A DNA stretch of 46,335 nucleotides, from assembly GCA_033697325.1 (NCBI GenBank), contig GCA_033697325.1_4854.1; one strand, 5' to 3'. Below the pieces are notes generated by a model. The model had not been told where the DNA came from. It was given only the letters and a program-made list of their open reading frames with translations, and ran no database searches. Shown here piece by piece: positions 4,619 to 45,492 of this stretch (positions are counted from its first letter, which is position 1; every line of letters begins with the position of its first letter). The DNA comes from a phage. The position numbers and the translations under genes were made by a program.

Positions 4619-5140
4619 TTAAAACGGCACATCATCACTAAAGTCCATAGGCGGCTCGTTAGACGGTGCAGATTGCTTAGGAGCAGGTGCTGCTTTTGTC
4701 TGTTGACGACTGAAAACGCCAGCCACATAGTTACCAGTTTTTTGCTTATCCTCAGACTCCCAAACGCGCAGAAGAAGAATCATTGGGCGATTTGCAAGCG
4801 CACTGGCAATGGCAAAATCAGTCGGCTCTTTCCCTGATGCCATCAGCTTACCACCAGCGTTTGCGTCAATTGCTGCAAGCATAGTGATAGCATTGTCGCG
4901 CTGCTTTTCTTTCGAGCTAAATACTTTCAGCTTCTGGAAGATGATGCGATTTTTATACTCACCCTCAAGGATTCGCCACTTAAGATTGAAGAATCGCTCA
5001 CCTTCCCACTGATCGTCTTTACACTCTTCAACGGCAGCAAGAACACGGCTGCCATCAGGAATTACTTCGAAACCACCACCCAGCTCAAATTCAGATTTAG
5101 ATTCAACAGCTTTACCGTCAGAAAGATTCCAGAAACCCAT
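4619..5140 (-). CDS. Putative ssDNA-binding protein with SSB-type acidic C-terminal tip (…NEPPMDFSDDVPF); fold not a canonical SSB by eye
   Basis: C-terminus APSNEPPMDFSDDVPF resembles the E. coli SSB tail. Sits next to Sak4 and Gp157-like genes. ATG at 5140 with SD gagagga. Confidence 0.55.
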   Translation of the reverse strand: MGFWNLSDGKAVESKSEFELGGGFEVIPDGSRVLAAVEECKDDQWEGERFFNLKWRILEGEYKNRIIFQKLKVFSSKEKQRDNAITMLAAIDANAGGKLMASGKEPTDFAIASALANRPMILLLRVWESEDKQKTGNYVAGVFSRQQTKAAPAPKQSAPSNEPPMDFSDDVPF

Positions 5141-5157
5141 TTTTGTGTCCTCTCGAT

Positions 5158-5637
5158 TTATTTGATGATCAGTTTTGGTTTGCCGTCGGTGATGGCACAA
5201 CCCTTAATTTCAATCCCGGCCTTTATCGCATTTTTAATTGCTGCGTTATCTGCCGACACTTTCACAACTCGGTACTGCTCAGGAAGCTGCTCAACAGGAA
5301 CAAACACATCAAGAACTGGTGACGGTTTGCCAAGAGTGATACTGAACAATTTACCTTTGATATTTGTCTTTCCTGACGCCATCATGTTTTGACGAAGATA
5401 ATCTTTAAGGTTATCTATCTTCGCAACTAAAACACGCTTACGCTCAGAAAGACGGTCAATCTCGGATTTAAGTCCAGCTTCATCAGCTTCAAGCTCACGA
5501 ATGTAAGCAGCAACCATTTCAGCCTTTCCTTCAAACTCCTCTTCAATAAGATTGATGGTATCTTCAATCTGCTCCCGTGGAATATCCTCCATCGCCAGCA
5601 GTTCATTAAGCTGTTTGGTTATCTCGTATAGATGCAT
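5158..5637 (-). CDS. Gp157-like phage protein (Sak4-associated)
   Basis: Coiled-coil N-terminus and overall resemblance to the siphovirus Gp157 family. Position between Sak4 and the SSB-like gene. Start uncertain (ATG 5637 or GTG 5652). Confidence 0.5.
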   Translation of the reverse strand: MHLYEITKQLNELLAMEDIPREQIEDTINLIEEEFEGKAEMVAAYIRELEADEAGLKSEIDRLSERKRVLVAKIDNLKDYLRQNMMASGKTNIKGKLFSITLGKPSPVLDVFVPVEQLPEQYRVVKVSADNAAIKNAIKAGIEIKGCAITDGKPKLIIK

Positions 5638-6448
5638 AATATTTAATCTCACTCAAAAGTGGGTTCTCACCTTTTTCAAAAGGAATTTCAGGTTCAAGGT
5701 TGTATCTGTTTTTAGCATTAACATACCCAATACGACCATCACCAGAGGTGATAAGAACTCGCTGACCAGTCTGAACAACCTTTCCAAACTTGGTTACCTG
5801 CCCTTTCTTATCAGTCTCAGTCCCTTTCACAAACTCCTCATTCCTGATGTAAATTACAGCATCACTAAGATTTACATAACCAGAAACAGAAGCATCATGC
5901 ATGTCAAGTGTGTAAACTGTGTATTCATCAGCATCAGGGCGATTCTTCATCTTTTTAACACCTGCGTGTGCAAGATAAATGATGCTCATCCCTTTTTCTT
6001 TGCGAAGATACTTACATGCATTTATTATTTCAGCGTGCATTTCAGAAACAACAATATATCCTTTGTTGTAACCACCAGCAGCAGAACCAACGTTGTCAAC
6101 ACCGTAATTTTCACAAACCTCATGCTCAAACATTGAATGCAGGCTTGTGATTGAGTCAATTACAAGCGTTTTGTAATTATGTTCCTCAGTAATTAATGCG
6201 CGTAGCTGTGACAGCAAGTCATCTTTTGTGCTTGTTTTTCGTTTAGCATCAGCGCGCTTCAGAACAGGAAATGAGTCAGGTTTCTTTTCATCATCCCAGT
6301 CGTCAAAAACACCAGTTATCTCTTCTGCCTGAATAAAAACTGGGCTTGGAAACAGCGCCGCAAGTGTTGTTTTGCCTACACCTGGAGTACCAACCAATGT
6401 TATGATTGGTGCTGCTGGTTTTGGTTTTTGAATCATTGATAAGCTCAT
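5606..6448 (-). CDS. Sak4-like RecA-type ATPase (ssDNA annealing / recombination)
   Basis: Walker A LVGTPGVGKTT near the N-terminus, RecA-like core, length about 280 aa. SD gagagga before ATG 6448. Confidence 0.7.
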   Translation of the reverse strand: MSLSMIQKPKPAAPIITLVGTPGVGKTTLAALFPSPVFIQAEEITGVFDDWDDEKKPDSFPVLKRADAKRKTSTKDDLLSQLRALITEEHNYKTLVIDSITSLHSMFEHEVCENYGVDNVGSAAGGYNKGYIVVSEMHAEIINACKYLRKEKGMSIIYLAHAGVKKMKNRPDADEYTVYTLDMHDASVSGYVNLSDAVIYIRNEEFVKGTETDKKGQVTKFGKVVQTGQRVLITSGDGRIGYVNAKNRYNLEPEIPFEKGENPLLSEIKYYASIRDNQTA

Positions 6449-6871: not shown

Positions 6872-7267
6872 TTAAATCCCTTTCGAACTCAAGCTGTCTT
6901 TCTCTCTCCTGCCTCCGTACTCTTTGTTTACTTCCTCGTACGGAACGCCAAACGCCTTGCAGAAATTAAATAGTGCGTCACCTGCAAACACTTCGCTTGG
7001 ATGCCAGCTTCCTGAATGTCTTGCAACATCCCTGTATGAAGCTGTCACTATGCCGACATTGTTTTTGTATTTTATCCTGCAAAACAAAACGTCATCATCA
7101 ATACAGACTCCCATATTGCAACGGAACACAGGGAACTTCCAGTAGTAAACCTCCATCAGGTGTTTACCTGTCATCAGAGAGATTGCGTTGTGATGCCCAC
7201 CTTCAGGGTCTTCGGATTCAAAGTAATCAAACAATCCCTTCATTACGATGAACTTGTAGTTAATCAT
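6872..7267 (-). CDS. Hypothetical protein
   Basis: ORF of 131 aa. ATG overlaps primase stop (ATGA coupling). Confidence 0.5.
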   Translation of the reverse strand: MINYKFIVMKGLFDYFESEDPEGGHHNAISLMTGKHLMEVYYWKFPVFRCNMGVCIDDDVLFCRIKYKNNVGIVTASYRDVARHSGSWHPSEVFAGDALFNFCKAFGVPYEEVNKEYGGRREKDSLSSKGI

Positions 7268-9597
7268 ATCTCAACCTCATCATTTGTTAATTTGTAAATA
7301 ACTGCCTTGTTGGATGTTCTTTTTGCGCTTTCATCAATACAAATAACCCCATCAGATAGTAACTTATCAACGCACCTCTCAACATCTGCGCGCTTATATC
7401 CACCGTCTTTTGCTACCCCTTTAATCATTGCTGTTTTAGTCATTCCACGTTTCACATATTCTTTAACCATGGAGAACAGTCCTTCAACCCTTTCCTCCAT
7501 TGCTTTAGACTTCGCTCCGGAAATACTGTCAGCACGCATCATCAGGTCGCTTGTTGATTTAATTGTTAATGCTACCGCATATCTCAAGTGCTCCATGGTT
7601 ATAACTCCAGTATCGCACGCGAGAATGCCAGCAATCTTTGCCACCTTCACAGCACATCTGTTTATCAATGGATGATAGCCAGTACCGTTTTCTACATGCT
7701 TTCTTGCAACAGTTTTAATCCATGAGAAGAAATCCTTAGCGAGCTGAGAAACTTCAGGCGTAGCTTTTATAATCCGCCTTTCTTTTTGACTGATGATTGA
7801 GTCTGTCCAGTTTTTGTGCCCAGCTGTTCCGCCATTTATTATTGTTTTTATGGTCAGTTGCATATCCATAGGTAGATCACAGTAGTTTACGTTTTCGTTT
7901 TCGTCAGCAATCTCCTGTAACTCCTGCATAATCATTGCGCGACCCATAAGACCTGACTTAATGTTTTCTTCAGTAATAAGGCGCTTAAACTGATCATCAG
8001 TAGACACACCAAAGATTGAAAAAAATGGATTCCTTATAGCTCCATCAATTCTGTTTATCACATCATCAAACTGACACTTAATGTCAACAGGGTCTGCCTG
8101 TATCTCATTTTCCTCAATAGCCATTAACAGCATAGCCTTTCTTTTTTCGAAAGACTTAATGAAATCCTCAGTAACCCGCTGGTCACAATAAAGAACTTCT
8201 GACGTGTAAGCCTCCATGATCGCACCAGCGGTTGCCATGTTGTACTCGCTTACTTTCTGACCAACAACACTCCCAAGTTTTATCCCAATCTCATCCATGA
8301 TGATATTAAACATCTGGTTAGCGCAAAGACCTTCATATATCGCACGTTCTGAACGTATCTTACCGGCAACCGTCTTACTTAATCCTGAGCAATCAATTAT
8401 CTTTTGTAGCGCTGCAAGAACATCACCTTTACCTGAACCAGAGCCAGCGATACCAACAGCAAAAAGGTTTGGCAAAGCCTTCCTGTTTGTAAGGTAAATA
8501 TCAGATGACGCTCCGCAAATCATGGATGCAGCGTGCAATGCAGCAAGTGCTGCAATATTCTCTCGCTTCTCTGCACAGTTCTTATTAATCCACGCCGTAA
8601 GGCGACCAACAAATCCAGGGGGATAACGGACATCAACACTTTTGTACTCTACAGGGCATTCACCAACACCCATAGCCATCTCTCGCTCGAAAGACTCAAG
8701 TTTCTCAATTTCCTCTGGCGTAGCCTCAAAAGTTACTTGCCTTACCCATCCTCCCTCTTGTGCCAGATAAACAAGAGTTCCTGCGGTTATCTTGTCGTCA
8801 ATTCCATCTTTACCAAATGAATGCCATTTTGCATCCATTTCTTCTGGTCGGTATTTGCTAAACTGTGATGACCAGTTGTTCCACAGATCAAAACCATTAC
8901 CGTCAGTTGCTTCATGGATAGCCATCCCCACATTTATCCACGGATTGTACTCATCACCATCCTTGATGTATTTGAGCATGTCCTCCATTTCAGCAATGCT
9001 GTAATTTTTACTATCGAGCGTGAAAACCTCATCTTCAGATCGCTCAGGACGAAGCAGAAGTTCAATAAGTTGATATGGAGCTTCAGTTATCTCAGAAGGA
9101 GAGCCATGCTCGGCTTCATAAAAATTACCTGACTTATGGAAAGATCCGCAACCAATAACGAAACCAGATGATTTAAAGTCAATGCCATTAAATCTTCTGT
9201 CATGAGATCGCAGCTTCATTCCTTCAGGAAGTTTGTAATAGATATGGCGACCACCTCCACCAGTCTTTACCGTAAAACCAGATTCATCAGCAAGTTCAAC
9301 ATCTAACGCATCACACAACGCCTCATATCCATCATCACCACCATTCCTTGGGTCAATATCAACAACAAGGTACCCATTAACAAGAACGCCGAATGACTGT
9401 AACTTGCCATACTTAGCCATGCTTTCAATCTGCTCATCATCCCACTGAACACCAAGCTGCCAGTTACTCATAATCGGATGCTTTCCCGCAGCCTTGCATT
9501 CCGGATCGCCACAAGTACAGTTGCGCCACTCATCCATCGGATGAATGTCGATAATAGGGAAGCCGCATTTGCGATAATCTTCATAACCAATCATCAT
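7264..9597 (-). CDS. DNA primase/polymerase (prim-pol N-terminal domain) with C-terminal P-loop NTPase-like region
   Basis: VDIDPRNGGDDGYEAL and CxxC motifs resemble bifunctional prim-pol; downstream GIAGSGSGKG P-loop. ATG 9597 overlaps the upstream stop. Confidence 0.7.
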   Translation of the reverse strand: MMIGYEDYRKCGFPIIDIHPMDEWRNCTCGDPECKAAGKHPIMSNWQLGVQWDDEQIESMAKYGKLQSFGVLVNGYLVVDIDPRNGGDDGYEALCDALDVELADESGFTVKTGGGGRHIYYKLPEGMKLRSHDRRFNGIDFKSSGFVIGCGSFHKSGNFYEAEHGSPSEITEAPYQLIELLLRPERSEDEVFTLDSKNYSIAEMEDMLKYIKDGDEYNPWINVGMAIHEATDGNGFDLWNNWSSQFSKYRPEEMDAKWHSFGKDGIDDKITAGTLVYLAQEGGWVRQVTFEATPEEIEKLESFEREMAMGVGECPVEYKSVDVRYPPGFVGRLTAWINKNCAEKRENIAALAALHAASMICGASSDIYLTNRKALPNLFAVGIAGSGSGKGDVLAALQKIIDCSGLSKTVAGKIRSERAIYEGLCANQMFNIIMDEIGIKLGSVVGQKVSEYNMATAGAIMEAYTSEVLYCDQRVTEDFIKSFEKRKAMLLMAIEENEIQADPVDIKCQFDDVINRIDGAIRNPFFSIFGVSTDDQFKRLITEENIKSGLMGRAMIMQELQEIADENENVNYCDLPMDMQLTIKTIINGGTAGHKNWTDSIISQKERRIIKATPEVSQLAKDFFSWIKTVARKHVENGTGYHPLINRCAVKVAKIAGILACDTGVITMEHLRYAVALTIKSTSDLMMRADSISGAKSKAMEERVEGLFSMVKEYVKRGMTKTAMIKGVAKDGGYKRADVERCVDKLLSDGVICIDESAKRTSNKAVIYKLTNDEVEI

Positions 9598-10821: not shown

Positions 10822-10850
10822 TTGACGTAGAATCATCGTTGATGTAGATT
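10822..10850 (+). promoter_or_regulatory. Promoter for rightward small-gene operon, carrying two copies of the recurrent motif
   Basis: TTGACG(TAGA), 17-nt spacer, (TGATG)TAGATT. Confidence 0.5.
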
Positions 10851-15037: not shown

Positions 15038-15127
15038 TGAGCGTTTATTTTATGTATCAAGTCAGCAGCCACAGCAAGAAAGGAAGCTGAGCTAAGACAT
15101 GACTTTCACAAGAACCACGGCGCTTGA

Positions 15128-16589
<1,462 letters not shown>

Positions 16590-16683
16590 TATAATCATAA
16601 ATGCAGCTAGTCCGGCCAGACGAAAAGGTGAACGTAGACACCCTGCTGCATCCTCAATCTACGAACCTACTACGGGGTTACTC

Positions 16684-17817
16684 ATGGCAAAAAGACTCAC
16701 CACGGAAGAATTCATTTCTCGCGCCAGACAAAAACATGGCGACAAGTACATTTATCATAAATGTGAATACGTCAACGCAAAAACAAAAATCGTCATAACA
16801 TGTAAAGCGCACGGAGACTTCACTACCATTCCAGCATCGCACTTAAGGGGGCATGAGTGTCTTCGGTGCAGCACTGAACGAGCATCAAAGAGTAGGGTTT
16901 TGGACACTGAAAAGTTCATCATGCGTGCAATGGAAGTTCACGGTGATAGATATAGTTATGAAAATACCAACTACATTTCATCTGATGATAAAGTGGAAAT
17001 AATATGCAGCGAGCATGGGTCGTTTTATCAAAGAGCTGCAGGTCACCTATCAGGGAAAGGATGTTCTGCCTGTGCAGTAATAAGCAAGGCTGCGTCAATG
17101 TCGGTTACTGAGGATTATTTCATTGCCAAATCTATTTCGCGCCATGGCTATAAATACGATTATACGCAATCTTTCCCGCTGATAAAAAAGAAGGCAAAAA
17201 TATCATGCCCTACACATGGGGTTTTTATGCAGTCACCACTTGCACACATGCGCGGGCAAGGATGCCCAGAATGCAGCATTGAAAAGTCCAGATCTACTCT
17301 GCATTCATTTATAGAATCCGCCAGAAGGGTCCATGGATCATCATATATTTATGAAAAAGTTAAATATGTAAACTCAATAACAAAGGTTGTTATCACTTGC
17401 AAGATACATGGCGACTTCCTGCAGCAACCAAATAGACACCTATCTGGGAGGGGTTGCCCTGGTTGTGCTAAAACTGGGTTTGACAAGAACAAGGATGGAT
17501 TCGTTTACTTTCTGATGGGGGATGGCGCTGTGAAGGTTGGCATCACAAACAAACCAAAGCAAAGATTGAGTCAGCTTAAGTCTGAAACCCCATTTGAATT
17601 CTCAGTATTTTCAATTGTCAGGATGTCAGGCGTGGAGGCTATTGAACTTGAAAAATACTATCATAAAAAATATGAGAGAATTGGATTCATTGGATTTAAC
17701 GGCTGTACTGAATGGCTGAAATATTCTAAAGAATTAATGGAAGAGATAATCTATGAGACTTCTAAAAATAAACACAAAGATAACCGCTCAGCCGCGCATA
17801 TCGCAGAGCCTGACTGA
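16684..17817 (+). CDS. Homing-endonuclease-like protein: N-terminal repeat modules plus C-terminal T5orf172/MUG113-type (GIY-YIG-related) domain
   Basis: Four repeats of HGDKY.Y...K..I.C..HG.F...P..HL.G.GCP.C, then GFVYFLMGDGAVKVGITNKPKQRLSQL...EWLKY. Inserted between portal and minor head genes. Confidence 0.6.
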   Translation: MAKRLTTEEFISRARQKHGDKYIYHKCEYVNAKTKIVITCKAHGDFTTIPASHLRGHECLRCSTERASKSRVLDTEKFIMRAMEVHGDRYSYENTNYISSDDKVEIICSEHGSFYQRAAGHLSGKGCSACAVISKAASMSVTEDYFIAKSISRHGYKYDYTQSFPLIKKKAKISCPTHGVFMQSPLAHMRGQGCPECSIEKSRSTLHSFIESARRVHGSSYIYEKVKYVNSITKVVITCKIHGDFLQQPNRHLSGRGCPGCAKTGFDKNKDGFVYFLMGDGAVKVGITNKPKQRLSQLKSETPFEFSVFSIVRMSGVEAIELEKYYHKKYERIGFIGFNGCTEWLKYSKELMEEIIYETSKNKHKDNRSAAHIAEPD

Positions 17818-20020: not shown

Positions 20021-20032
20021 AATTTGATGTAG

Positions 20033-20063
20033 ATACTATGCACCACCACTCAATCTACGTCAA
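20033..20063 (-). promoter_or_regulatory. Leftward promoter with motif pair
   Basis: Minus strand TTGACG, then 17-19 nt, then CATAGT or TAGTAT. Confidence 0.4.
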
Positions 20064-20546
20064 CATTTGTTTCCCATGATTGCTATGAAATCCAAACCGT
20101 CTCTCTGCGTTTTTTCTCGCTGACACCGCAGAATCCTTTGAATCAAATCCGCCAAGGTTAATGTGCTTCCCGTTAACCGTTATCCTTGCAACCCACTTGC
20201 GTCTACTCTTGCACCAATGAACACCAGTCACTCCTGACGTATTCATTCTGTGTGTCTTTTGATTTTTCTGGTTTTCAGCGTGACTCACCAGTCTTAAATT
20301 CTCAATCCTGTTATCAAGCCTGTTATGGTTTATGTGGTCAATCTCCATGCCTTCAGGTATCGGGCCGTTATGCATTTCCCATATGATTCTGTGTGCAAGA
20401 TAGCGCTTACGATTATAGCGAACAATCCTGTATCCGAAATTTGTTACAGAGCCAGCAATGTCTCCGGCTTTTTTAGACGCTAGTGGAGGCATCCTCCATA
20501 GCAGATTGATGCCGTCATAATAGAAAACATCACTCCAATCTTTCAT
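20055..20546 (-). CDS. HNH homing endonuclease with AP2-type DNA-binding domain
   Basis: IDHINHNRLDNRIENLRLVSHAENQ HNH motif; C-terminal GVHWCKSRRKWVARITVNGKHINLGGF AP2-like. SD gggag. Confidence 0.75.
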   Translation of the reverse strand: MKDWSDVFYYDGINLLWRMPPLASKKAGDIAGSVTNFGYRIVRYNRKRYLAHRIIWEMHNGPIPEGMEIDHINHNRLDNRIENLRLVSHAENQKNQKTHRMNTSGVTGVHWCKSRRKWVARITVNGKHINLGGFDSKDSAVSARKNAERRFGFHSNHGKQMLT

Positions 20547-20574
20547 GTTGACTACTCCCAATATCCATACCTTC

Positions 20575-20603
20575 AATCTACATCACCAACTTATCTACGT
20601 CAA
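20575..20603 (-). promoter_or_regulatory. Leftward promoter for the HNH gene
   Basis: Minus strand TTGACG, 17-nt spacer, TAGATT; two motif copies. Confidence 0.5.
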
Positions 20604-23463: not shown

Positions 23464-23506
23464 TGACGTTTCTACATCACTTAGTCAATACTTATTGATG
23501 TAGATT
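23464..23506. promoter_or_regulatory. Divergent regulatory region with inverted motif pair
   Basis: TTGACG at 23464, tctacatca at 23471-23479, gatgtagatt at 23497-23506; lies between leftward and rightward operons. Confidence 0.35.
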
Positions 23507-28078: not shown

Positions 28079-29149
28079 ATGGAAAAGATTATTTTTACCA
28101 AAGATTTGGTAGCCAACTCCGCAGTAGTGGCTGACCAGTGGAAACATCTCACCATCGACCGTAAAGTGTTCTGCAACGCAGAAGCTGAACTGGCGAAAAC
28201 CTACGGTGTTAACGCCACCGCACTGGTAACGAAAGATTACTGGCGCGACGTGGATAACGTTACCACCCGCGTTTTCCGCAACGAAGCTGGTCAGGACATG
28301 ATGGCTGACCTGATGGGTATCGCGGCAAACATCAACATCGGCAAGACTGTGGCAATCAGCCGCATCGCTTCCGATGCTGGTAAGGTCGTCCGCACCCTGT
28401 CTGGTCAGGAGCCGGAAGATTTGGATAAAACTCGCTACGATTACACTGGCGATGTGATTCCAATCTTCAAAACTGGCTACAGCCGCGAATGGCGCGAACT
28501 GCTGGGTATGCAATCTGAAGGTTTTGACCCGCTGCTGGACGATCAGGCCAACGTCACCTTCAACCTGCGTTCCGATATGGCGCAGTATCTGTTGACTGGC
28601 GACCAGACTCTAAACGTGAATGGCGTTTACACTGGTTACGGCATCACTAACCACCCGAACACCGTTCAGGTTAACCTGAGCACTTCACCAGGCCTGAATA
28701 TCGACCTGCAAACCGCAACGCCTGACCAAATCGTGACCTTCTTCAATCAGGATTTCCAGGCTATTCTGGATGCGCAGAACGTATTTGAGCAGGTGACTCT
28801 GTGGGTTTCCCCGGCAGTACGTCGCAGCTTCATGCGTCCGTATTCTAACGCAGCTGGCTTCAAAGGCGGCACGGTTGAGCAGTACATCACTCAGTTCGGC
28901 AATGGTCGCATCGGTAAGATTGGCACCAACTTCCTGCTGACTGGTAACCATTTCGTTGGCTACGTTCGCAACGACATGTACATCCGTCCGCGTGTTGCTC
29001 AGCCTGTTTCCACCTATGCGGCAGCCCGCGTCAACCCGCACGATAACTTTAACTTTATGGTATGGTCTGCTTACGGAATCCAGATACGCAAGGATTTCGC
29101 TGGTCGTTCGAAAGTATTTAACGGCTATGGGACGCAACCCCCGCTGTAA
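28079..29149 (+). CDS. Major capsid protein
   Basis: 356 aa, position and composition consistent with an HK97-fold major capsid protein; followed by a strong terminator. Confidence 0.7.
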   Translation: MEKIIFTKDLVANSAVVADQWKHLTIDRKVFCNAEAELAKTYGVNATALVTKDYWRDVDNVTTRVFRNEAGQDMMADLMGIAANINIGKTVAISRIASDAGKVVRTLSGQEPEDLDKTRYDYTGDVIPIFKTGYSREWRELLGMQSEGFDPLLDDQANVTFNLRSDMAQYLLTGDQTLNVNGVYTGYGITNHPNTVQVNLSTSPGLNIDLQTATPDQIVTFFNQDFQAILDAQNVFEQVTLWVSPAVRRSFMRPYSNAAGFKGGTVEQYITQFGNGRIGKIGTNFLLTGNHFVGYVRNDMYIRPRVAQPVSTYAAARVNPHDNFNFMVWSAYGIQIRKDFAGRSKVFNGYGTQPPL

Positions 29150-29150
29150 T

Positions 29151-29177
29151 AAAAAAAGGGGCGAAAGCCCCTTTGTG
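29151..29177 (+). terminator. Intrinsic terminator after major capsid gene
   Basis: A7 run, gggg-cgaaag-cccc hairpin, tttgtg. Confidence 0.65.
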
Positions 29178-29192
29178 AATTTGAGGTGAATA

Positions 29193-29414
29193 ATGGCTAA
29201 ATACGAAGTCATCGCTCGCGGAATCTTTGTTAAAGAGAAAGGCAAGATTCGTGAATTGCAGCTTGGCGAGGTGATTACCGAACCAGACGAGCATCTGCTG
29301 CCAAAACTGCGCATCATGCCTGACCTGCCAAAGACGTTTGAGGTTGCCACGCATACAAAAGAAGGTGACAGCAAACAAAAACGCCGTCGTCACGCAGGTA
29401 GCGAAGATGAATAA
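29193..29414 (+). CDS. Hypothetical protein (73 aa)
   Basis: SD gaggtga before ATG 29193. Confidence 0.45.
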   Translation: MAKYEVIARGIFVKEKGKIRELQLGEVITEPDEHLLPKLRIMPDLPKTFEVATHTKEGDSKQKRRRHAGSEDE

Positions 29415-29417
29415 ATA

Positions 29418-29440
29418 AAGCCCTCGATTGAGGGCTTGTC
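29418..29440. terminator. Bidirectional intrinsic terminator
   Basis: aagccctc-gatt-gagggctt hairpin; T-rich on the minus strand after the PP-loop gene stop. Confidence 0.55.
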
Positions 29441-29441
29441 A

Positions 29442-30254
29442 TTAATTCTCATTAGAAAATGCTTCGCAACTCTCGCTGCATGAACCAGTATCGTACTGGC
29501 GCATTGACGTCATTCGTGATGCCAGTTCATCCCTGCTTACATCGTTAAATAAAACTATAACGTCGCCAAGACTTCTGTTTGAGCGATACATTATCTTGTC
29601 TGATTTTTTATCTTCATCCTGAATCATCTTCCAAAACTCAGCAGCAAGTTCCGGCTCATCCTTTGCAGCAAGTGCAACTTTCTGCAGGCTCTTCTTGATG
29701 CAGAAAACGCAATTACCAAGATGCTCCTGAATACCAAGGTCGAATGGTTGCATTGACCACCAGTCAAGGATATCCTGCTTTTCAAAGTCGCTAATGTCTG
29801 CAAGGTAATGAAAACCGTCACCTCGGTTCTTTAACCGGTTTGGTTCATCGGACCTGATGCCAAGCCATCTTTCGTAGTTTCCTTTCCCGTATTTTTCATT
29901 ACAGTATTTAGTGAATGGCACGGTCTTCATTCTGTCGGTGCAGAATGCTCCACCAACGTATGGATGACCATACTTACGCAACATTCTCCGCCACGGCTCA
30001 AGGTCTGGACCAATCTCATCGACGGTTAGCTGCTCATACGTACTTGCCTTACGCATTTGCATATTTGGAACCACGCGAATACATGTCACGGCGACATTGA
30101 AATGCTTTGCGAAGTTGCGAATAAACTCATACGTTTTTGGGTGCTCTGCTCCAGTATCCATAAAGATAATTTCGGCTTCTGGGTGTATCTTTAGCACCTC
30201 CAGCGTCATAAACGCTGAAGTTCTACCGCCTGAAAAGCTAATAACTTGATTCAT
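29442..30254 (-). CDS. PP-loop ATP pyrophosphatase, PAPS reductase-like (DndC/IbrA-like N-domain)
   Basis: N-terminal SFSGGRTS PP-loop motif; 270 aa; SD aaaggag; own promoter. Confidence 0.7.
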   Translation of the reverse strand: MNQVISFSGGRTSAFMTLEVLKIHPEAEIIFMDTGAEHPKTYEFIRNFAKHFNVAVTCIRVVPNMQMRKASTYEQLTVDEIGPDLEPWRRMLRKYGHPYVGGAFCTDRMKTVPFTKYCNEKYGKGNYERWLGIRSDEPNRLKNRGDGFHYLADISDFEKQDILDWWSMQPFDLGIQEHLGNCVFCIKKSLQKVALAAKDEPELAAEFWKMIQDEDKKSDKIMYRSNRSLGDVIVLFNDVSRDELASRMTSMRQYDTGSCSESCEAFSNEN

Positions 30255-30287
30255 GTCCGTCGCTCCTTTCTTATATCTACATCACTC

Positions 30288-30316
30288 ATATTGCGGTCAT
30301 TAGGTATCTACGTCAA
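30288..30316 (-). promoter_or_regulatory. Leftward promoter for PP-loop gene with motif pair
   Basis: Minus strand TTGACG, 17-nt spacer, CAATAT; motif copies at 30275-30284 and 30306-30315. Confidence 0.35.
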
Positions 30317-30358
30317 TATTTATTATAAACAAAACACCTAGTCAGGGTCTTTTGATTG

Positions 30359-30901
30359 CTACAGACGCATAGGCATAACAACAATCTTCGCAGTCTCGCC
30401 AGATGGCGCGCTAAGGCAGCAAACTGCGGCATTTGTGTTTCCATTCAGTTCAAACTTAACGCTACTGAATTTATGGTTAAACAGCTTCGCCACTTTCTCA
30501 ATATCAACAAGGTAGCCAGCATTGAAGCCAATTTCCTCTGTTGGTAAGGTCTGCTTCGGTATAACACGATCAATATCAGGGAATCGACCATCAATCTCTT
30601 CACAGATACCAGCGCCCACAATTGTGTCCATATGGCCAAAATGATAGGTAACGATTCCAGATTTTGTATCGATTATCGCATGGTTATATTTCTTTGTCGG
30701 AGACTTGCTGACCTTTACAATTATATTTTCAGCAATCTCGTTGTCATGACCGCCACCAATGAATGCGCGATGACCGTCAGTTGACGCAATGCGACCATCA
30801 GTCATGAAGCAGATGCCGTTCAGGTAGTAGCGCGCATCATTGCGCGCCTGAAATATTAATGCTGACTCAAGTAATAATTTGCTGATTTTTAGTTTCATCA
30901 T
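30359..30901 (-). CDS. Truncated DNA polymerase III beta sliding clamp (DnaN) homolog: domain II plus C-terminal half of domain III
   Basis: DARYYLNG...ASTDGHRA, DGRFPDIDRVIPK, EEIGFNAGYLVD and C-terminal IVVMPMRL line up with E. coli DnaN residues about 130-366 as recalled from memory. Domain I is absent. Confidence 0.65.
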   Translation of the reverse strand: MMKLKISKLLLESALIFQARNDARYYLNGICFMTDGRIASTDGHRAFIGGGHDNEIAENIIVKVSKSPTKKYNHAIIDTKSGIVTYHFGHMDTIVGAGICEEIDGRFPDIDRVIPKQTLPTEEIGFNAGYLVDIEKVAKLFNHKFSSVKFELNGNTNAAVCCLSAPSGETAKIVVMPMRL

Positions 30902-31071
30902 TTCACCTTAATCATGTGCTGTTTTGCAACCTTCAGGCATTCTTCAAAAATGCCACCTTTCTTAGCGCTCTGATTGCGCTTGTAATACTGAATTGCCGCA
31001 TCAATTGCCATCTGGTCGATATCAGGCAGCTTGGTGCGAAGTTGTTTTTCGATGAATTGTTCTGGTGTCAT
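30898..31071 (-). CDS. Hypothetical small protein (57 aa)
   Basis: Translationally coupled on both sides; below the ORF track cutoff. Confidence 0.4.
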   Translation of the reverse strand: MTPEQFIEKQLRTKLPDIDQMAIDAAIQYYKRNQSAKKGGIFEECLKVAKQHMIKVK

Positions 31072-31880
31072 CACATCTTCTCCAGAATTGCCATAACCTC
31101 GTGAATGTCAGCAACAGGAATCTGGATAAATTCCTCATCCTCTGCCACAACATGGCCAGCAGGTAGAATCACGTGTTCTGCCGGCTTCAATAACTCAATC
31201 AGGCGGTCTACTGGCTTAATCTTTTTCGACTTCAGCACTTTTGCTGTGACCTTGTCTTTGCCTTGCGCCTTCGCTTCTTCCACGGCCTCGTCGATAACTT
31301 TTACCGCATCATCGCCATGCTCGCGCGTTACTGCTACGGCATTTGCATAGCTGATTTGTCCGGCACTGATGCGCGCTTTCACTTCCGCTGGCACATCACC
31401 CAGCGACAGGTGCATTTGCACGTCAGATACTGAGCGACCTACCTTTTTGGCTATTTCCTCGTTGGTCCAGCCAAATCCTTTCAGTCGCGTGTAAGCCTTT
31501 GCGCGCTCAAACGGGTCAAGTTGCTTGCCCTGACTTGATGACACCATGAAGGCGATTTTGTCCGCCTCGTCGCCAGTGAAATCCTTACATTCAATGCGAA
31601 CGATTGGCGCACCACGCTCAATGGCACGCAATGCGCCGAGATAGCGGTGCTGACCGTCAAGAATGCGGATTCCCTTCTCATCTGGAATAACTGTTAACGC
31701 TGGTAATGGCTGACCGGACTCCCAGCACTGCGCGAAATATTCGACATGCTGTTCATCTGCTTCACGGATGTTGTATCCCGGCTCAAGATAGATTTGCTCC
31801 ACTGGAACGAGATAGGTTTTGTTTACCGCGATGCCGTTGCGCGTCTCTTTGTCTGAATAGATTTTGCTGAGTGTTTTCAT
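31071..31880 (-). CDS. DGQHR-domain / ParB-like protein with HTH
   Basis: Exact DGQHR motif in IRILDGQHRYLGAL; HTH-like WTNEEIAKKVGRSVSDVQMHL; SD aagga. Confidence 0.7.
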   Translation of the reverse strand: MKTLSKIYSDKETRNGIAVNKTYLVPVEQIYLEPGYNIREADEQHVEYFAQCWESGQPLPALTVIPDEKGIRILDGQHRYLGALRAIERGAPIVRIECKDFTGDEADKIAFMVSSSQGKQLDPFERAKAYTRLKGFGWTNEEIAKKVGRSVSDVQMHLSLGDVPAEVKARISAGQISYANAVAVTREHGDDAVKVIDEAVEEAKAQGKDKVTAKVLKSKKIKPVDRLIELLKPAEHVILPAGHVVAEDEEFIQIPVADIHEVMAILEKM

Positions 31881-31883
31881 TGT

Positions 31884-32063
31884 TTATCCTTGAAATCCAT
31901 GTGAGTAAGCATAGTTATATGCATCTTCTGAGTTATCAAAATATTCATAATCAGTCCATCCATCGCGAATAAACTGGCAGCACCAGTGGGCTGGAATGCC
32001 TTCGTCTGATGCTTGATAAAAAACATCAACAACCACAACTTCTGTTTCACCTTCCATTTTCAT
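31884..32063 (-). CDS. Hypothetical small acidic protein
   Basis: First gene of the leftward island operon; ATG 32063 with SD agaggtg. Confidence 0.4.
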   Translation of the reverse strand: MKMEGETEVVVVDVFYQASDEGIPAHWCCQFIRDGWTDYEYFDNSEDAYNYAYSHGFQG

Positions 32064-32098
32064 CACCTCTAACATTTATTGTTGTTTCTACGTCACTA

Positions 32099-32127
32099 AC
32101 TATAAACACCTCATCAATCTACGTCAA
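32099..32127 (-). promoter_or_regulatory. Leftward promoter for the island operon
   Basis: Minus strand TTGACG, 17-nt spacer, TATAGT; motif copies at 32086-32095 and 32117-32126. Confidence 0.5.
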
Positions 32128-32293: not shown

Positions 32294-32734
32294 ATGTTCG
32301 GCGCAGACATTGCCATCATGATCATGTATGTGTTGGGATTCGCCTGCACGGGCATGATTGCGTTTCTGGTGTTCATTCCGGCAATGGTGATGTCTGCGTA
32401 TCTTGGATGGGTGCTTGTTGGTTCATTTCCCGCCGAATATCTGTATTACCTTGCGCAGTCTATGGTCTGGTTATTTCCGGCTATTGCCTTGCGCAAAAGT
32501 ACAAAGATGGCGATCTGCGTGCTGACGATGAGCCTTTACGAATGGCTGGTTGCGATAGAGTCATTCGTATGGGAATTTATCACGCCTGTAGAAACGCCGC
32601 TTCATGCGCAGTACGCATTTATTATTATCGGCATCCATCTGTTCATCCTTTCCATCACTTTTAAATGGGGCGGCGAAATTGGACATTATTCTTGGCGTGG
32701 TCGCCATTGTTTTTTCGCTGATTCAAATCTATAA
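32294..32734 (+). CDS. Putative membrane protein (frame and extent uncertain)
   Basis: Several hydrophobic helices; overlaps two other hydrophobic ORFs in different frames. Confidence 0.3.
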   Translation: MFGADIAIMIMYVLGFACTGMIAFLVFIPAMVMSAYLGWVLVGSFPAEYLYYLAQSMVWLFPAIALRKSTKMAICVLTMSLYEWLVAIESFVWEFITPVETPLHAQYAFIIIGIHLFILSITFKWGGEIGHYSWRGRHCFFADSNL

Positions 32735-32766
32735 GTGCTGGAAACATATCATCAGCGAGACACGCA

Positions 32767-33051
32767 ATGAACGGAGCACTAAGGCAATTCGCAGAGCAGA
32801 TTATAAGCGGAACGACAGGACAGGTGATTGATAAGGCTGGATATGCTTCTATTGGCACCGGTATCGGTCTGAAAGTTGCAGAACAAACACCTGTCACGCA
32901 ATCTTATTTTGAGGCTATGATTCCACACAGCCTGACAGAGTGGGCGGCAGTAGCGTCAATCCTCGGCGCTCTTTCTCTGGTAATAAAGAACCTGTTTGAA
33001 ATGTGGTGGAAAGTACGGGAGTCGAAAAAAAATGGCAGCACCAACACCTGA
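32767..33051 (+). CDS. Putative small membrane protein (holin-like topology)
   Basis: C-terminal TM AAVASILGALSLVI followed by a charged tail. Confidence 0.3.
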   Translation: MNGALRQFAEQIISGTTGQVIDKAGYASIGTGIGLKVAEQTPVTQSYFEAMIPHSLTEWAAVASILGALSLVIKNLFEMWWKVRESKKNGSTNT

Positions 33052-44608: not shown

Positions 44609-44632
44609 GAAGCCCCTCACGGGGCTTTGTTC
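44609..44632. terminator. Bidirectional intrinsic terminator
   Basis: agcccc-tcac-ggggct hairpin; the loop contains the stop codon of the leftward T5orf172-type gene. Confidence 0.6.
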
Positions 44633-45492
44633 ATTATCTCATCCATTAATTCAGATGAATACTTAAGCCACTCAGTTGCGCCATCAAACCCCGTCAGTCC
44701 TGCACTTTCGTATTTCTTATGAAAATACTTCTCCAATGCTGCTGCGTTAACTCCCGTCATTTTAATATGATGAATTTCATTGAAATTGAACGGAGTCTCC
44801 CTCTTAAGAGTTGCTAGCCGCTGGGTGATCTTATTTGTTATCCCGACCTTTATCCCATACTCACTAATTAAAAAGTAAACATAAGCATTTTTTGTCTTGT
44901 CAAATCCACTCTTTGCACAACCAGGGCAACCGCGCCCCTTAAGGTGATTGGAAGGAGTAACCATGAAATCACCATGAATACCACATGTGACAATGACTTT
45001 CTCTGATACCTTTTTGCATATTGTTTTATCATATTTATACCTAAAAGAGTGAATCAGATTAGATTTAAAAACAAAGTCATGTGTATTAACCCTTCCTTTA
45101 CCAGAGCATTTTTGGCAACCTTGACCACTCAAGTGCTTATCTGGAGATTTCAAAAAATCACCATGCTTTTTGCATGTTATTATTATCTTACTGGTTCCGT
45201 TTTTATATACTGTTTTTCCGTAATCATACAAATCACCATGCTTTAACTTTGCTTTCATTATGAACTCTTCGGTGTTCATCGTCATCCTTGATGATGCGCA
45301 CTCAGCTTGACATTTAATGCATCCTCGACCAAGTAGGTGGTTAGCAGCCCTCTGCTTAAACTCTCCGTGTTTCTTGCAAATTATTGTTACGTAAGATTTA
45401 TTGCCGTTGTATTCAACCATTGAGTAATCATACTTATCCCCATGGATCAATATCGACTTTGACACAAAGTCATTAGTTGTCATTCTTTTCAT
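44617..45492 (-). CDS. Homing-endonuclease-like protein, paralog of 16684-17817 (repeat modules plus T5orf172/MUG113-type domain)
   Basis: Three repeats of HGDKYDY...I.C.KHG.F...P..HL.G.GC.KC, then AYVYFLISEYGIKVGITNKITQRLATL...EWLKY. Confidence 0.6.
   Translation of the reverse strand: MKRMTTNDFVSKSILIHGDKYDYSMVEYNGNKSYVTIICKKHGEFKQRAANHLLGRGCIKCQAECASSRMTMNTEEFIMKAKLKHGDLYDYGKTVYKNGTSKIIITCKKHGDFLKSPDKHLSGQGCQKCSGKGRVNTHDFVFKSNLIHSFRYKYDKTICKKVSEKVIVTCGIHGDFMVTPSNHLKGRGCPGCAKSGFDKTKNAYVYFLISEYGIKVGITNKITQRLATLKRETPFNFNEIHHIKMTGVNAAALEKYFHKKYESAGLTGFDGATEWLKYSSELMDEIMNKAP

What the first reader, a model, noticed from the sequence alone, without database searches (positions are those of the whole stretch)
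29442..32127. Opposite-strand island inside the head-tail module: DGQHR/ParB-like protein, truncated beta-clamp and PP-loop enzyme
Five tightly coupled leftward genes interrupt the rightward capsid-to-connector gene run between the major capsid gene and the head-tail connector genes. They have their own promoters (32099-32127 and 30288-30316) and a terminator (29418-29440). The three recognisable products are all DNA-associated: a DGQHR-motif ParB-like protein, a DnaN fragment and a PAPS-reductase-like PP-loop enzyme. I do not recognise this combination as a described phage system. It could be a DNA modification, anti-restriction or host-replisome-targeting module.
Basis: partly seen in the sequence, partly recalled or inferred. 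Interest (0 to 1): 0.88.

Follow-up and report, generated by a model that had tools for sequence, protein, structure and literature searches.

The report
Phage accessory-gene hotspot with mobile NinC-like gene
The leftward gene block is real but is not one new system: it is a conserved ParB-like plus truncated-clamp operon shared by about 150-190 related phages, with a separately mobile NinC/PAPS-reductase-like gene beside it that most likely protects the phage from sulfur-based (phosphorothioate) DNA restriction.

Summary
Five leftward ORFs, the upstream promoter and the terminator are at the stated coordinates.

The interpretation as one three-part system does not hold. The window is a Skatevirus/Segzyvirus/Deseoctovirus-type siphovirus.
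- **Core:** all 32 complete related loci carry ParB-like, a 58-aa ORF and a 180-aa truncated beta-clamp at this position.
- **Variable slots:** three slots around the core hold DNA methyltransferases, an annotated anti-restriction protein and HNH/EndoVII genes.
- **PP-loop gene:** it occurs at this site in only one other phage. In phage AB4P2 a 97%-identical copy, with its promoter and terminator, lies about 14 kb from that phage's ParB/clamp genes. It is therefore an independent moron cassette of about 0.9 kb.

The PP-loop protein is a lambda NinC homologue. It is 52.5% identical over its full length to the PAPS domain of Vibrio phage 44E38.1 p0018, a gene published as conferring resistance to Dnd defence. 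It fails the CysH models and gave no NCBIfam DndC match.

The truncated clamp lacks domain I and half of domain III. It keeps nearly every residue of the beta-clamp's partner-binding pocket, and those residues are the most conserved in its family. This uncharacterised family is the most interesting lead.

Verdict: new member of known kinds, moderate-to-low interest.

The parts
32086..32127 (-). Promoter of the four-gene operon (TTGACG, 17-nt spacer, TATAGT). It carries two copies of the phage-specific motif TGAYGTAGAW (32117-32126 over the -35, and 32086-32095 just after the -10).
   Evidence: Promoter scan, 10 of 12 matches. The motif occurs 14 times in the window against 0.34 expected. Geometry. 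The pair is conserved in front of the ParB operon in relatives, including a Klebsiella phage.
31884..32075 (-). 63-aa ORF of unknown function. It is the first gene of the operon and occupies variable slot C.
   Evidence: phrog_37822, 6e-19. Found in only 3 of the 37 fetched loci. Other phages carry different small genes here, several sharing the first codons MLEV....
31071..31880 (-). ParB/KorB-like DNA-binding protein: a degenerate ParB N-terminal domain (GQHR in place of GERR), a ParB-type HTH and a C-terminal domain.
   Evidence: HTH_ParB 2.5e-11 and KorB 9e-6. phrog_1033 6e-91. PDB Spo0J 1vz0 6.6e-13, with the aligned motifs shown. 98-100% identical in most relatives.
30898..31074 (-). 58-aa conserved ORF, translationally coupled to the genes on both sides (4-nt overlaps).
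   Evidence: phrog_4439 4.5e-23. Present in every related locus that covers the position.
30359..30901 (-). Truncated beta-clamp ('mini-beta'). It comprises DnaN domain II plus the C-terminal half of domain III and ends in VVMPMRL like E. coli beta. It keeps the partner-binding pocket and lacks domain I and the ring interface.
   Evidence: PDB phmmer to E. coli-type DnaN 1.9e-12; query 8-156 aligns to beta 136-289 and query 122-180 to beta 315-366. AF2 pLDDT 96.7. Foldseek top hits are E. coli DnaN and viral proteins of about 180-200 aa with TM up to 0.90. Family conservation.
29413..30329 (-). Moron cassette of about 0.9 kb (terminator, NinC-like gene, promoter), inserted into the bidirectional terminator between the 73-aa rightward gene and the clamp-like gene.
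   Evidence: blastn: this stretch is 92% identical to AB4P2 924-1842, at another locus. The window flanks 29000-29423 and 30325-31047 are contiguous in AB4P2 at 15045-16172. Junction sequences.
30275..30316 (-). Promoter-like region of the cassette: TTGACG, 17-nt spacer, weak -10 CAATAT, and two TGAYGTAGAT copies 31 bp apart (30306-30315 and 30275-30284). An AGGAG ribosome-binding site lies upstream of the ATG.
   Evidence: Sequence; motif statistics. The same motif pair travels with the cassette in AB4P2 (1788 and 1819). The sigma-70 scan did not call it.
29442..30254 (-). NinC-family PAPS-reductase-like PP-loop protein (270 aa). It has SGGRTS, DTG...PKTY, an Arg loop (R134 D136 E137 R140), invariant C105/C182/C185, and C259/C263 in a disordered tail.
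   Evidence: PAPS_reduct 39.9 bits, cut-off 22.5. phrog_33262 1e-102. PADLOC SspD 1.4e-12 and BrxP 7e-7. 68% identical to P22-like NinC and 52.5% to 44E38.1 PAPS-Dam. Invariant residues. AF2 pLDDT 89.7. Foldseek top hits are APS and PAPS reductases.
29418..29437 (-). Intrinsic terminator of the cassette (AAGCCCTC-AATC-GAGGGCTT followed by TATTTATT).
   Evidence: Terminator scan. It lies inside the stretch shared with AB4P2.

Best explanation
The block is a composite of two parts.

**1. A lineage-wide early operon.** It encodes ParB/KorB-like, a 58-aa protein and a truncated beta-clamp, and is fixed between the capsid and connector genes of this siphovirus group. It also serves as a landing site for accessory genes. 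Relatives carry N6/N4 and C5 DNA methyltransferases, a methyltransferase-remnant/EndoVII fusion, an annotated anti-restriction protein and HNH genes in three slots around the core.

**2. A separately acquired PP-loop gene.** It is not part of that operon. It is a self-contained moron of about 0.9 kb with its own regulated promoter and terminator, and it moves between intergenic sites of these phages.

**How the PP-loop protein most likely works.** It is a stand-alone lambda NinC-family enzyme. Its PAPS-reductase-type nucleotide site, its Fe-S-type cysteines and its flexible cysteine-bearing tail are all invariant across the homologues aligned, so it is most likely catalytic. By homology to the PAPS domain of Vibrio phage 44E38.1 p0018, its most likely role is counter-defence against phosphorothioate-based restriction (Dnd-type, possibly Ssp or BREX type 4).
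- Inferred step: it uses ATP and host-derived sulfur (IscS, possibly host DndD/E) to make phage DNA look like 'self' or to blunt PT-dependent sensing.
- Shown: homology, invariance of the catalytic residues, mobility, and the kind of genes that occupy the site in relatives.
- Not shown: the chemistry and the target.

**How the truncated clamp most likely works.** It cannot form a ring, but it keeps the clamp's peptide-binding cleft. It most likely binds clamp-binding-motif proteins of the host replisome. This phage has no DNA polymerase gene, so it probably depends on host Pol III. This step is inferred.
For: **Core versus cargo.** Of 37 loci fetched, 32 cover the whole interval. All 32 have ParB, the 58-aa ORF and the clamp-like gene in synteny; one (EcoIv28_Lewi) has the PP-loop gene. 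Cargo was typed by PHROGs: 9 of 32 loci carry methyltransferase-type genes and 9 of 32 carry phrog_14587 'anti-restriction protein'.

**Mobility.** AB4P2 has the gene at 955-1773, between terminase and portal, while its ParB/clamp genes are at 15487-17483. The cassette keeps its motif-bearing promoter in both locations.

**Independence elsewhere.** Five homologue contexts were inspected: the nin region beside NinB, a terminase-portal gap, a run of small early genes, a site beside a nucleoside deoxyribosyltransferase, and a site beside a recombination exonuclease. None has ParB or a clamp. Longer homologues show no ParB fusion.

**Function link.** The protein is 52.5% identical over residues 1-270 to 44E38.1 'Dam methyltransferase with PAPS reductase domain'. 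Transferring that gene region gave a phage the ability to infect a Dnd-carrying host (preprint 10.1101/2021.05.05.442762). Later papers cite the published version, Piel et al. 2022, for this.

**Enzyme features.** Invariant residues are, the model, and the fold match.

**Mini-beta.** Nine of the 10 near-invariant family positions map to pocket residues of beta (hypergeometric P = 1.7e-8). No polymerase A/B/C domain was found in the window's replication proteins or annotated in relatives.
Against: **On the anti-Dnd role**
- The experiment used a PAPS-Dam fusion together with a neighbouring gene, so the PAPS domain alone has not been proven sufficient.
- The window protein has no Dam domain.
- One study found vibriophages with a PAPS gene infecting hosts with and without Dnd equally well.
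- Lambda NinC has no assigned function.
- No DNA-modification data exist for this phage.

**On the clamp**
- The pocket-residue list comes from my knowledge of E. coli beta structures, not from a tool.
- No binding or oligomer prediction could be run.

**On independence**
- Insertion next to the ParB/clamp operon in two phages could still reflect a functional preference that 37 loci cannot exclude.
Confidence: 0.7

Rival explanations
1. One reading: ParB-like, truncated clamp and PP-loop enzyme form one co-evolved DNA-modification system. ParB targets the DNA, the clamp module tethers the complex, and the PP-loop enzyme modifies the DNA.
For: All three are DNA-associated and lie on one strand under promoters with the same operator motif. 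ParB-superfamily proteins (DndB) accompany PAPS-reductase-type enzymes in Dnd clusters. Methyltransferase genes sit translationally coupled to ParB in relatives. Mini-beta neighbours modification genes in other phages, namely Nmad5, Dam, Dcm and a C5 methyltransferase.
Against: The PP-loop gene is in 1 of 32 complete related loci, while the core is in all of them. A 97%-identical copy lies 14 kb from ParB/clamp in AB4P2. The five homologue contexts inspected lack both partners. The gene has its own promoter and terminator and a 104-bp gap. The DndB/DGQHR model is not met. No paper describes such a system.
Confidence: 0.06
2. The PP-loop gene is an auxiliary metabolic gene: a true PAPS/APS reductase that boosts host sulfur assimilation during infection.
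For: Pfam PAPS_reduct is met. The closest solved folds are APS and PAPS reductases. DTG...P(E/K)TY and the Arg loop are conserved. This reading is raised in the literature.
Against: The protein scores far below the curated cut-offs of every CysH/APS-reductase model: 18-28 bits against 154-254. Identity to solved reductases is only about 19%, with TM about 0.43. The tail reads SCSESC rather than the ECG(L/I)H motif I recall for CysH (own knowledge). It sits among anti-restriction-type cargo. The closest tested relative acts against Dnd.
Confidence: 0.07
3. The NinC-like protein helps phage recombination or replication, or modifies tRNA or nucleotides, and is not counter-defence. This would fit its classical position beside NinB/Orf in lambdoid nin regions.
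For: Homologues sit next to NinB, exonuclease or recombination genes and a nucleoside deoxyribosyltransferase. Other folds in the hit list include the sulfur transferases LarE and TtuA and GMP synthetase.
Against: No recombination-related domain was found. In this phage group the gene is sporadic (2 of 194 related records at 95% identity or more), which fits an accessory host-range gene better than a replication function. The only experimental link is to Dnd.
Confidence: 0.12
4. The ParB-like/mini-beta core is a plasmid-like maintenance or partition module for a carrier or pseudolysogenic state.
For: There is ParB family homology. Annotators name it 'ParB-like partition protein'.
Against: No ParA-type gene was seen among the proteins scanned. 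There is no repeated parS-like palindrome: 12 palindromes against 8.75 +/- 3.1 in shuffles, none recurring. GERR and ENLQRE are degenerate. The TIGR00180 cut-off is not met. Published relatives are described as strictly lytic.
Confidence: 0.05

Closest known systems
Bacteriophage lambda/P22 NinC (PF01507 phage PAPS-reductase-like proteins; phrog_33262 and phrog_424)
   Same: The length is similar (270 aa here; 281-283 aa in the P22-like and Vibrio K72 copies fetched). It is 68% identical to P22-like NinC and 47% to E. coli lambdoid and Stx-phage NinC. The invariant motifs are the same. It is a single accessory gene.
   Different: It is carried by a lytic siphovirus as a promoter-plus-terminator cassette inside the head module or the terminase-portal gap. 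It is not in a nin region beside NinB.
Vibrio phage 44E38.1 p0018, the PAPS-reductase-Dam fusion implicated in anti-Dnd counter-defence (Piel et al. 2022)
   Same: 52.5% identity across all 270 residues of the window protein. Both are sporadic accessory genes that are exchanged with methyltransferase genes among close relatives.
   Different: The window protein has no Dam domain. The Vibrio experiment transferred two genes, so the PAPS domain's own contribution is not isolated.
DndC / SspD / BrxP, the PP-loop sulfur-insertion enzymes of phosphorothioation systems
   Same: Same superfamily. PADLOC gives SspD 1.4e-12 and BrxP 7e-7. It has a PP-loop and a cysteine set suited to an Fe-S cluster.
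   Different: No DndA/D/E or SspA/B/C partner genes are present. No DndC model matched in NCBIfam at E <= 0.1. It is much shorter than BrxP, whose PADLOC profile has 779 positions.
E. coli beta sliding clamp DnaN. I also recall a UV-induced short form, beta*, made of domains II-III, but I did not check this.
   Same: Homologous to beta 136-289 and 315-366, with an identical C-terminus VVMPMRL. The fold is confirmed. The pocket-residue equivalents R152, Y153, Y154, L155, T172, G174, H175, R176, P242, R246, V247, N320, Y323 and V360-L366 are identical.
   Different: It has 180 aa against 366. Domain I is missing, as is the first half of domain III, which contributes I272/L273 to the dimer interface. 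It therefore cannot make the canonical ring. TIGR00663 scores 37 bits against a cut-off of 137.65.
ParB / Spo0J / Noc / KorB CTP-dependent DNA-binding clamps
   Same: It has a ParB N-terminal domain plus a ParB-type HTH. The best PDB matches are Spo0J, ParB, Noc and KorB.
   Different: GERR is replaced by GQHR and ENLQRE by SSSQGK, so CTP hydrolysis is doubtful. There is no ParA and no parS-like repeat. The TIGR00180 and Noc cut-offs are not met.
Dhillonvirus Nmad5 plus mini-beta island
   Same: It is an opposite-strand two-gene insert beside the capsid genes that ends with a homologous mini-beta (38% identity). The upstream partner is a nucleic-acid-modification-associated protein (Nmad5, 6.8e-55). 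An nmad5 point mutation lets Dhillonvirus escape Tmn defence.
   Different: The partner is Nmad5 rather than ParB-like. There is no PAPS-reductase gene.

Membership tests
PAPS-reductase-like PP-loop superfamily (Pfam PF01507) / phage NinC | Score above the Pfam gathering threshold, plus the N-terminal SGG-type loop and the DTG motif | tested here: met
   39.9 bits against a cut-off of 22.5. SFSGGRTS and FMDTGAEHPKTY are present and conserved. phrog_33262 1e-102. 68% identical to annotated NinC.
Assimilatory PAPS/APS reductase (CysH) | Meets the curated CysH/APS-reductase models and has the C-terminal ECG(L/I)H catalytic motif | tested here: not met
   NF002537 27.6 against 154; TIGR00434 20.4 against 165; TIGR02055 20.3 against 235; TIGR02057 18.3 against 254. 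The tail reads TGSCSESCEAF. The ECG(L/I)H motif itself is from my own knowledge.
DndC / SspD (phosphorothioation writers) | Encoded with the partner genes dndA/D/E or sspA/B/C | tested here: not met
   The gene is a single-gene cassette bounded by its own promoter and terminator. No such partners appeared among the window proteins scanned or in relatives' annotation.
DndC / SspD (phosphorothioation writers) | Sequence match to DndC or SspD models | tested here: inconclusive
   PADLOC SspD 1.4e-12 over residues 3-140 only, with no curated cut-off. No DndC family was reported by NCBIfam at E <= 0.1.
Phage anti-Dnd PAPS-Dam protein (44E38.1 p0018 type) | Homologous PAPS domain | tested here: met
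   52.5% identity, 100% query coverage, E = 6e-91.
Phage anti-Dnd PAPS-Dam protein (44E38.1 p0018 type) | C-terminal Dam methyltransferase domain fused to the PAPS domain | tested here: not met
   The protein ends at residue 270. It matches only positions 1-274 of the 495-position phrog_33262 profile. No methyltransferase domain was found.
Phage anti-Dnd PAPS-Dam protein (44E38.1 p0018 type) | Confers resistance to Dnd restriction | not testable with these tools
   This needs plating assays on hosts with and without Dnd.
Beta sliding clamp DnaN | Three-domain protomer of about 366 aa that meets the equivalog model and can close a head-to-tail dimeric ring | tested here: not met
   It has 180 aa. 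TIGR00663 scores 37.2 against 137.65. Only beta 136-289 and 315-366 are represented. Pfam beta_2 and beta_3 are below cut-off.
Beta sliding clamp DnaN | Hydrophobic partner-binding (clamp-binding-motif) pocket residues | tested here: met
   Alignment to E. coli beta: 20 of 23 pocket positions are identical. Nine of 10 near-invariant family columns fall on pocket positions, P = 1.7e-8. The pocket list is from my knowledge of published beta-peptide structures.
ParB/Spo0J partition proteins | Meets TIGR00180 and has the GERRxR and ENLQR nucleotide-binding boxes | tested here: not met
   TIGR00180 scores 38.9 against 58.45. GERR is GQHR and ENLQRE is SSSQGK in the alignment to 1vz0.
ParB/Spo0J partition proteins | A partner ParA ATPase and parS centromere repeats | tested here: not met
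   No ParA-like domain was found in the proteins scanned. Palindromes are at chance level and none recurs.
ParB/KorB-type HTH DNA-binding proteins | ParB HTH domain above the Pfam threshold | tested here: met
   HTH_ParB 44.1 against 22.6; KorB 26 against 22.3.
DGQHR domain / DndB-like | Meets TIGR03187 | tested here: not met
   16.1 bits against 58.85, matching only residues 61-101 around the motif.

The most novel reading that the evidence does not exclude
The conserved 180-aa 'mini-beta' may represent a widespread, uncharacterised class of phage proteins that keep only the beta-clamp's partner-binding cleft. It occurs in 297 GenBank phage records and in roughly 150 clusters of about 170-245 aa at the 50%-identity level. 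These proteins would act as pocket-only modules that capture host clamp-binding-motif proteins such as Pol III alpha or delta, Hda, translesion polymerases and MutS/L. They would work with a DNA-bound partner encoded just upstream: ParB-like here and in Serratia phage Eta and Pseudomonas phage TC7, and Nmad5 in Dhillonvirus. The outcome would be either recruitment of the host replisome to phage DNA in polymerase-less phages, or disabling of host replication and repair.
Probability: 0.3. Interest if true: 0.65.

Novelty: new member of a known kind. Interest (0 to 1): 0.33.

Why it matters
For annotation, the gap between capsid and connector genes in this common group of Salmonella, E. coli and Klebsiella phages is an exchange site for counter-defence genes. 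Several members of the group are used or proposed for biocontrol. What sits in this gap probably helps decide which restriction-bearing strains a phage can infect.

The NinC-like cassette is a clean natural example of a promoter-plus-terminator moron moving between sites. It extends the one published anti-Dnd PAPS domain from marine vibriophages to enterobacterial phages and to the long-unexplained lambda NinC family. That gives a direct experiment for a 40-year-old orphan gene.

The truncated clamp is mislabelled 'RusA-like Holliday junction resolvase' in PHROG-based annotations. Its conserved pocket makes a testable prediction about how polymerase-less phages engage the host replisome.

Tried and rejected
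- **parS-like site for the ParB-like protein.** I listed all palindromes with 7-bp arms in the window: 12 against 8.75 +/- 3.1 in shuffles, none recurring. Rejected.
- **ParB-PAPS fusions or adjacency (IbrA/IbrB-like).** Ten longer homologues have only PF01507. Five homologue contexts lack ParB. The literature search for IbrA/IbrB/ParB gave nothing usable.
- **DGQHR/DndB identity of the ParB-like protein.** Fails the model.
- **QueC / 7-deazaguanine reading of the PP-loop gene.** Only E = 0.074. Rejected.
- **Neighbourhoods of distant mini-beta relatives.** Exact-sequence look-up returned contigs of only 1-6 kb with no informative Pfam hits. A profile-based scan of viral contigs failed because the alignment had no conserved stretch. 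I used annotated GenBank phages instead.
- **Clamp-binding motif in the ParB-like protein.** A 'QLDPF' string sits in the column of ParB Box III (DLSPVE in 1vz0), so I read it as part of the fold and not a clamp-binding motif.
- **Literature.** I found no description of a ParB + PAPS reductase + clamp system or of truncated phage clamps.

Full report
**Observation**

The five leftward ORFs exist exactly where stated: 31884-32075 (63 aa), 31071-31880 (269 aa), 30898-31074 (58 aa), 30359-30901 (180 aa) and 29442-30254 (270 aa). They sit between the rightward major capsid gene (28079-29149) with a 73-aa gene, and the rightward lipoprotein, membrane-protein and connector genes from 32294. Annotated relatives name these flanking genes.

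- The first four ORFs are translationally coupled (a 3-nt gap, then two 4-nt overlaps).
- The fifth follows a 104-bp gap and has its own AGGAG site.
- The scan found the upstream promoter 32127-32099 (10 of 12 matches) and the terminator 29437-29418.
- The second promoter (30316-30288) has a weak -10 and was not called.
- Promoter-like hits in the region are not enriched over shuffles, so the promoters rest on position and on the motif described under 'Regulation', not on the scan.

**What the genome is**

The region matches 194 phage records. They are Salmonella, E. coli and Klebsiella siphoviruses of the genera Skatevirus, Segzyvirus and Deseoctovirus, such as Skate, SeSz, LPSTLL, C1 and BASEL Bas79-81. 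Only one record (EcoIv28_Lewi, 92% identity) covers 80% or more of the query.

**Core versus cargo**

I fetched 37 related loci and mapped the window proteins onto them.
- ParB-like (98-100% identical in most), the 58-aa ORF and the clamp-like protein (77-86% identical) are present and syntenic in every locus that covers the interval.
- The PP-loop gene is present only in Lewi.
- Three slots vary: capsid to clamp, 58-aa ORF to ParB, and ParB to lipoprotein.
- PHROG typing of the cargo found an N6/N4 methyltransferase, a C5 methyltransferase, a methyltransferase-remnant/EndoVII fusion, HNH endonucleases, a family annotated 'anti-restriction protein' (phrog_14587) and several unknowns.
- Of the 32 complete loci, 9 carry methyltransferase-type cargo, 9 carry phrog_14587 and 1 carries the PP-loop gene.

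**The PP-loop gene is a mobile moron**

Phage AB4P2 belongs to the same group. It has a 97%-identical gene at 955-1773, between terminase and portal. Its ParB/clamp genes lie at 15487-17483.

- Window 29413-30329 aligns to AB4P2 924-1842 at 92% identity.
- The window flanks 29000-29423 and 30325-31047 are contiguous in AB4P2 at 15045-16172.
- The empty site in AB4P2 is a bidirectional terminator hairpin, and the insertion lies within it.
- The unit of about 0.9 kb therefore carries terminator, gene and promoter, and has landed at two different sites.

Five more distant homologues were checked. They lie in the nin region beside NinB (P22-like SE22), in a terminase-portal gap (Vibrio K72), among small early genes, beside a nucleoside deoxyribosyltransferase (Chi-like) and beside a recombination exonuclease. 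None has a ParB or clamp neighbour. Longer homologues have no ParB fusion.

**What the PP-loop protein is**

- It meets Pfam PAPS_reduct (39.9 bits against 22.5) and matches phrog_33262 at 1e-102.
- It matches only positions 1-274 of that 495-position profile.
- It is 68% identical to P22-like NinC and 47% to E. coli lambdoid and Stx-phage NinC. It has relatives in 545 phage records, 341 of them Vibrio phages.
- It is 52.5% identical over all 270 residues to the protein annotated 'Dam methyltransferase with PAPS reductase domain' of Vibrio phage 44E38.1.

That protein is p0018 of Piel et al. Moving p0018 and the adjacent gene into a sensitive phage allowed infection of a Dnd-carrying host (preprint). 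Later papers cite the published version for this.

The window protein is far below every curated CysH/APS-reductase cut-off, and no DndC model matched. PADLOC gives SspD 1.4e-12 and BrxP 7e-7.

In an alignment of 119 homologues, these residues are invariant: T34, G35, E37, H38, T41, R134, D136, E137, R140, C105, C182, C185, C259 and C263. The AF2 model is confident (pLDDT 89.7) except for the tail 253-270, which carries C259 and C263. The nearest solved folds are the [4Fe-4S] APS reductase 2goy and CysH, at TM about 0.43 and 19% identity.

The layout is a nucleotide site, a cysteine cluster and a flexible cysteine-bearing tail. This resembles APS reductase and fits sulfur-transfer chemistry. 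That resemblance is my inference.

**The truncated clamp**

- phmmer against PDB aligns residues 8-156 to E. coli beta 136-289 and residues 122-180 to beta 315-366, ending in the identical VVMPMRL.
- The AF2 model has pLDDT 96.7.
- Foldseek returns E. coli DnaN from PDB. From BFVD it returns many viral proteins of about 180-250 aa with TM up to 0.90.
- The protein lacks domain I and the first half of domain III. In E. coli these supply the two faces of the ring interface (own knowledge), so a canonical ring is excluded.
- 20 of 23 pocket positions of beta are identical.
- In an alignment of 98 family representatives, the near-invariant residues are D22, R24, Y26, L27, G43, H44, P108, Y130, M176 and P177. 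Nine of these ten map to pocket residues R152, Y154, L155, G174, H175, P242, Y323, M362 and P363 (P = 1.7e-8).
- The exhaustive search found 1789 representatives at E <= 0.001. These include full-length DnaN. Most of the 150 listed are about 170-245 aa.
- 297 GenBank phage records carry a homologue.

Neighbours in other lineages are ParB-like (Serratia Eta, adjacent; Pseudomonas TC7, 1.2 kb upstream, with a C5 methyltransferase downstream), Nmad5 (Dhillonvirus, also an opposite-strand insert beside capsid genes), Dam/Dcm methyltransferases (Skarpretter) and an ASCH protein (Proteus PM-CJR).

The window encodes an intein-bearing SF2 helicase, a Prim-Pol/PriCT-2 primase, an AAA_24 ATPase and a DUF669 protein, but no DNA polymerase domain. 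Relatives also list none.

PHROG-derived annotations call this protein 'RusA-like Holliday junction resolvase'. The homology evidence contradicts that name.

**The ParB-like protein**

- It has a ParB-type HTH above threshold. Its best PDB matches are Spo0J, ParB, Noc and KorB.
- GERR is GQHR and ENLQRE is SSSQGK in that alignment.
- The partition and Noc models are not met, and neither is the DGQHR/DndB model.
- No ParA was seen among the proteins scanned, and no recurring palindrome was found.
- I read it as a KorB-like DNA-binding regulator or adaptor rather than a partition protein. Its ligand and its DNA site are unknown.

**Regulation**

A 10-bp motif, TGAYGTAGAW, occurs 14 times in the window against 0.34 expected. 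Twelve copies lie in six pairs at promoter-like regions, and two are single (14629, 36797).
- Both island promoters have one copy over the -35 and one just after the -10, 31 bp apart.
- The motif occurs 12-13 times per genome in Bas79 and AB4P2.
- The pair travels with the cassette in AB4P2.
- The cassette is therefore wired into the phage's own regulatory circuit. The binding factor is unknown, and the ParB-like protein is one candidate.

**Mechanism and rivals**

Best supported (confidence about 0.7 for the architecture): a fixed ParB-like/58-aa/mini-beta operon that doubles as an accessory-gene hotspot, plus an independent NinC-family cassette.

For the cassette I commit to counter-defence against phosphorothioate-based restriction, probably by catalysis on phage DNA using host sulfur donors. 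Homology and context support this. The chemistry is inferred.

| Rival | Confidence | Main evidence against |
|---|---|---|
| One three-part system | 0.06 | Contradicted by distribution and by the AB4P2 location |
| Sulfur-assimilation gene | 0.07 | Fails the CysH models |
| Recombination or other nucleic-acid role | 0.12 | No recombination domain; sporadic distribution |
| Partition module | 0.05 | No ParA, no parS |

**Caveats**
- The anti-Dnd experiment used a fusion protein plus a second gene.
- One study saw no Dnd-specific effect of a vibriophage PAPS gene.
- The pocket-residue list and the dimer-interface residues come from my own knowledge.
- No multimer prediction or wet-lab test was possible.

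**Novelty**

Each component belongs to a catalogued family, and the island is present and annotated in about 150-190 deposited genomes. The finding is a new member of known kinds.

New here are the cassette boundaries and its two insertion sites, the link from lambda NinC to the anti-Dnd PAPS domain in enterobacterial phages, and the observation that the truncated-clamp family is conserved precisely at the clamp's partner-binding pocket.

Noticed in passing
window 10823-10849, 20025-20062, 20576-20602, 23470-23505, 30275-30315, 32086-32126; singles at 14629 and 36797: The 10-bp motif TGAYGTAGAW occurs 14 times against 0.34 expected. Twelve copies lie in six pairs at promoter-like regions (direct pairs 17 or 31 bp apart, or inverted). 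The upstream copy overlaps the -35 (TTGACGTAGAT). It is conserved 12-13 times per genome in Bas79 and AB4P2 and absent from the other mini-beta phage groups checked. It is probably the operator or promoter element of an unidentified phage regulator.
   Followed up: partly
window 1653-4607 (- strand): The 984-aa SF2 helicase (ResIII/Helicase_C) carries an intein: a Hint domain at residues 49-136 and a LAGLIDADG homing endonuclease at 268-339. The helicases annotated in Bas79 and AB4P2 are about 518 aa.
   Followed up: no
window 30359-30901, and phrog_3007 generally: PHROG- and pharokka-based annotations (RefSeq, BASEL records) name this protein 'RusA-like Holliday junction resolvase'. Sequence and structure show it is a truncated DnaN, so this looks like a propagated misannotation.
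   Followed up: yes
window 31071-31880 versus 30359-30901: The ParB-like protein is 98-100% identical across phages whose DNA here is only about 90-92% identical. The adjacent clamp-like protein is only 77-86% identical, even to Lewi, whose flanking PAPS gene is 99% identical. This indicates strong purifying selection on ParB and mosaic exchange within the operon.
   Followed up: partly
window 7264-9597, 5606-6448, 4619-5200 (- strand): The replication module (Prim-Pol/PriCT-2/DUF3987, AAA_24, DUF669) differs from that annotated in Bas79 and AB4P2 (DnaG-type primase, helicase, SSB, exonuclease VIII). The module has been swapped within the group, and neither version has a DNA polymerase.
   Followed up: partly
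window 20055-20576 (- strand) and 44617-45492 (- strand): Free-standing homing-type endonuclease genes. An HNH_3 + AP2 protein sits directly between two motif-bearing promoter regions. A T5orf172/MUG113 (GIY-YIG-like) protein lies near the right end of the window.
   Followed up: no
window 32294-33051 (+ strand): Immediately right of the island lie a 146-aa 'lipoprotein' (phrog_14688) and a 94-aa membrane protein classed as a moron (phrog_13738). Both are still upstream of the connector genes. The whole stretch 29.4-33.0 kb between capsid and connector genes is accessory.
   Followed up: no
L043 (Escherichia phage WF5505, Dhillonvirus) 2676-4010: Dhillonviruses have an analogous opposite-strand insert beside their capsid genes, made of Nmad5 (PF18757, 6.8e-55) followed by a mini-beta. 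An nmad5 point mutation is reported to let Dhillonvirus escape the Tmn defence system (PMC11846954).
   Followed up: partly
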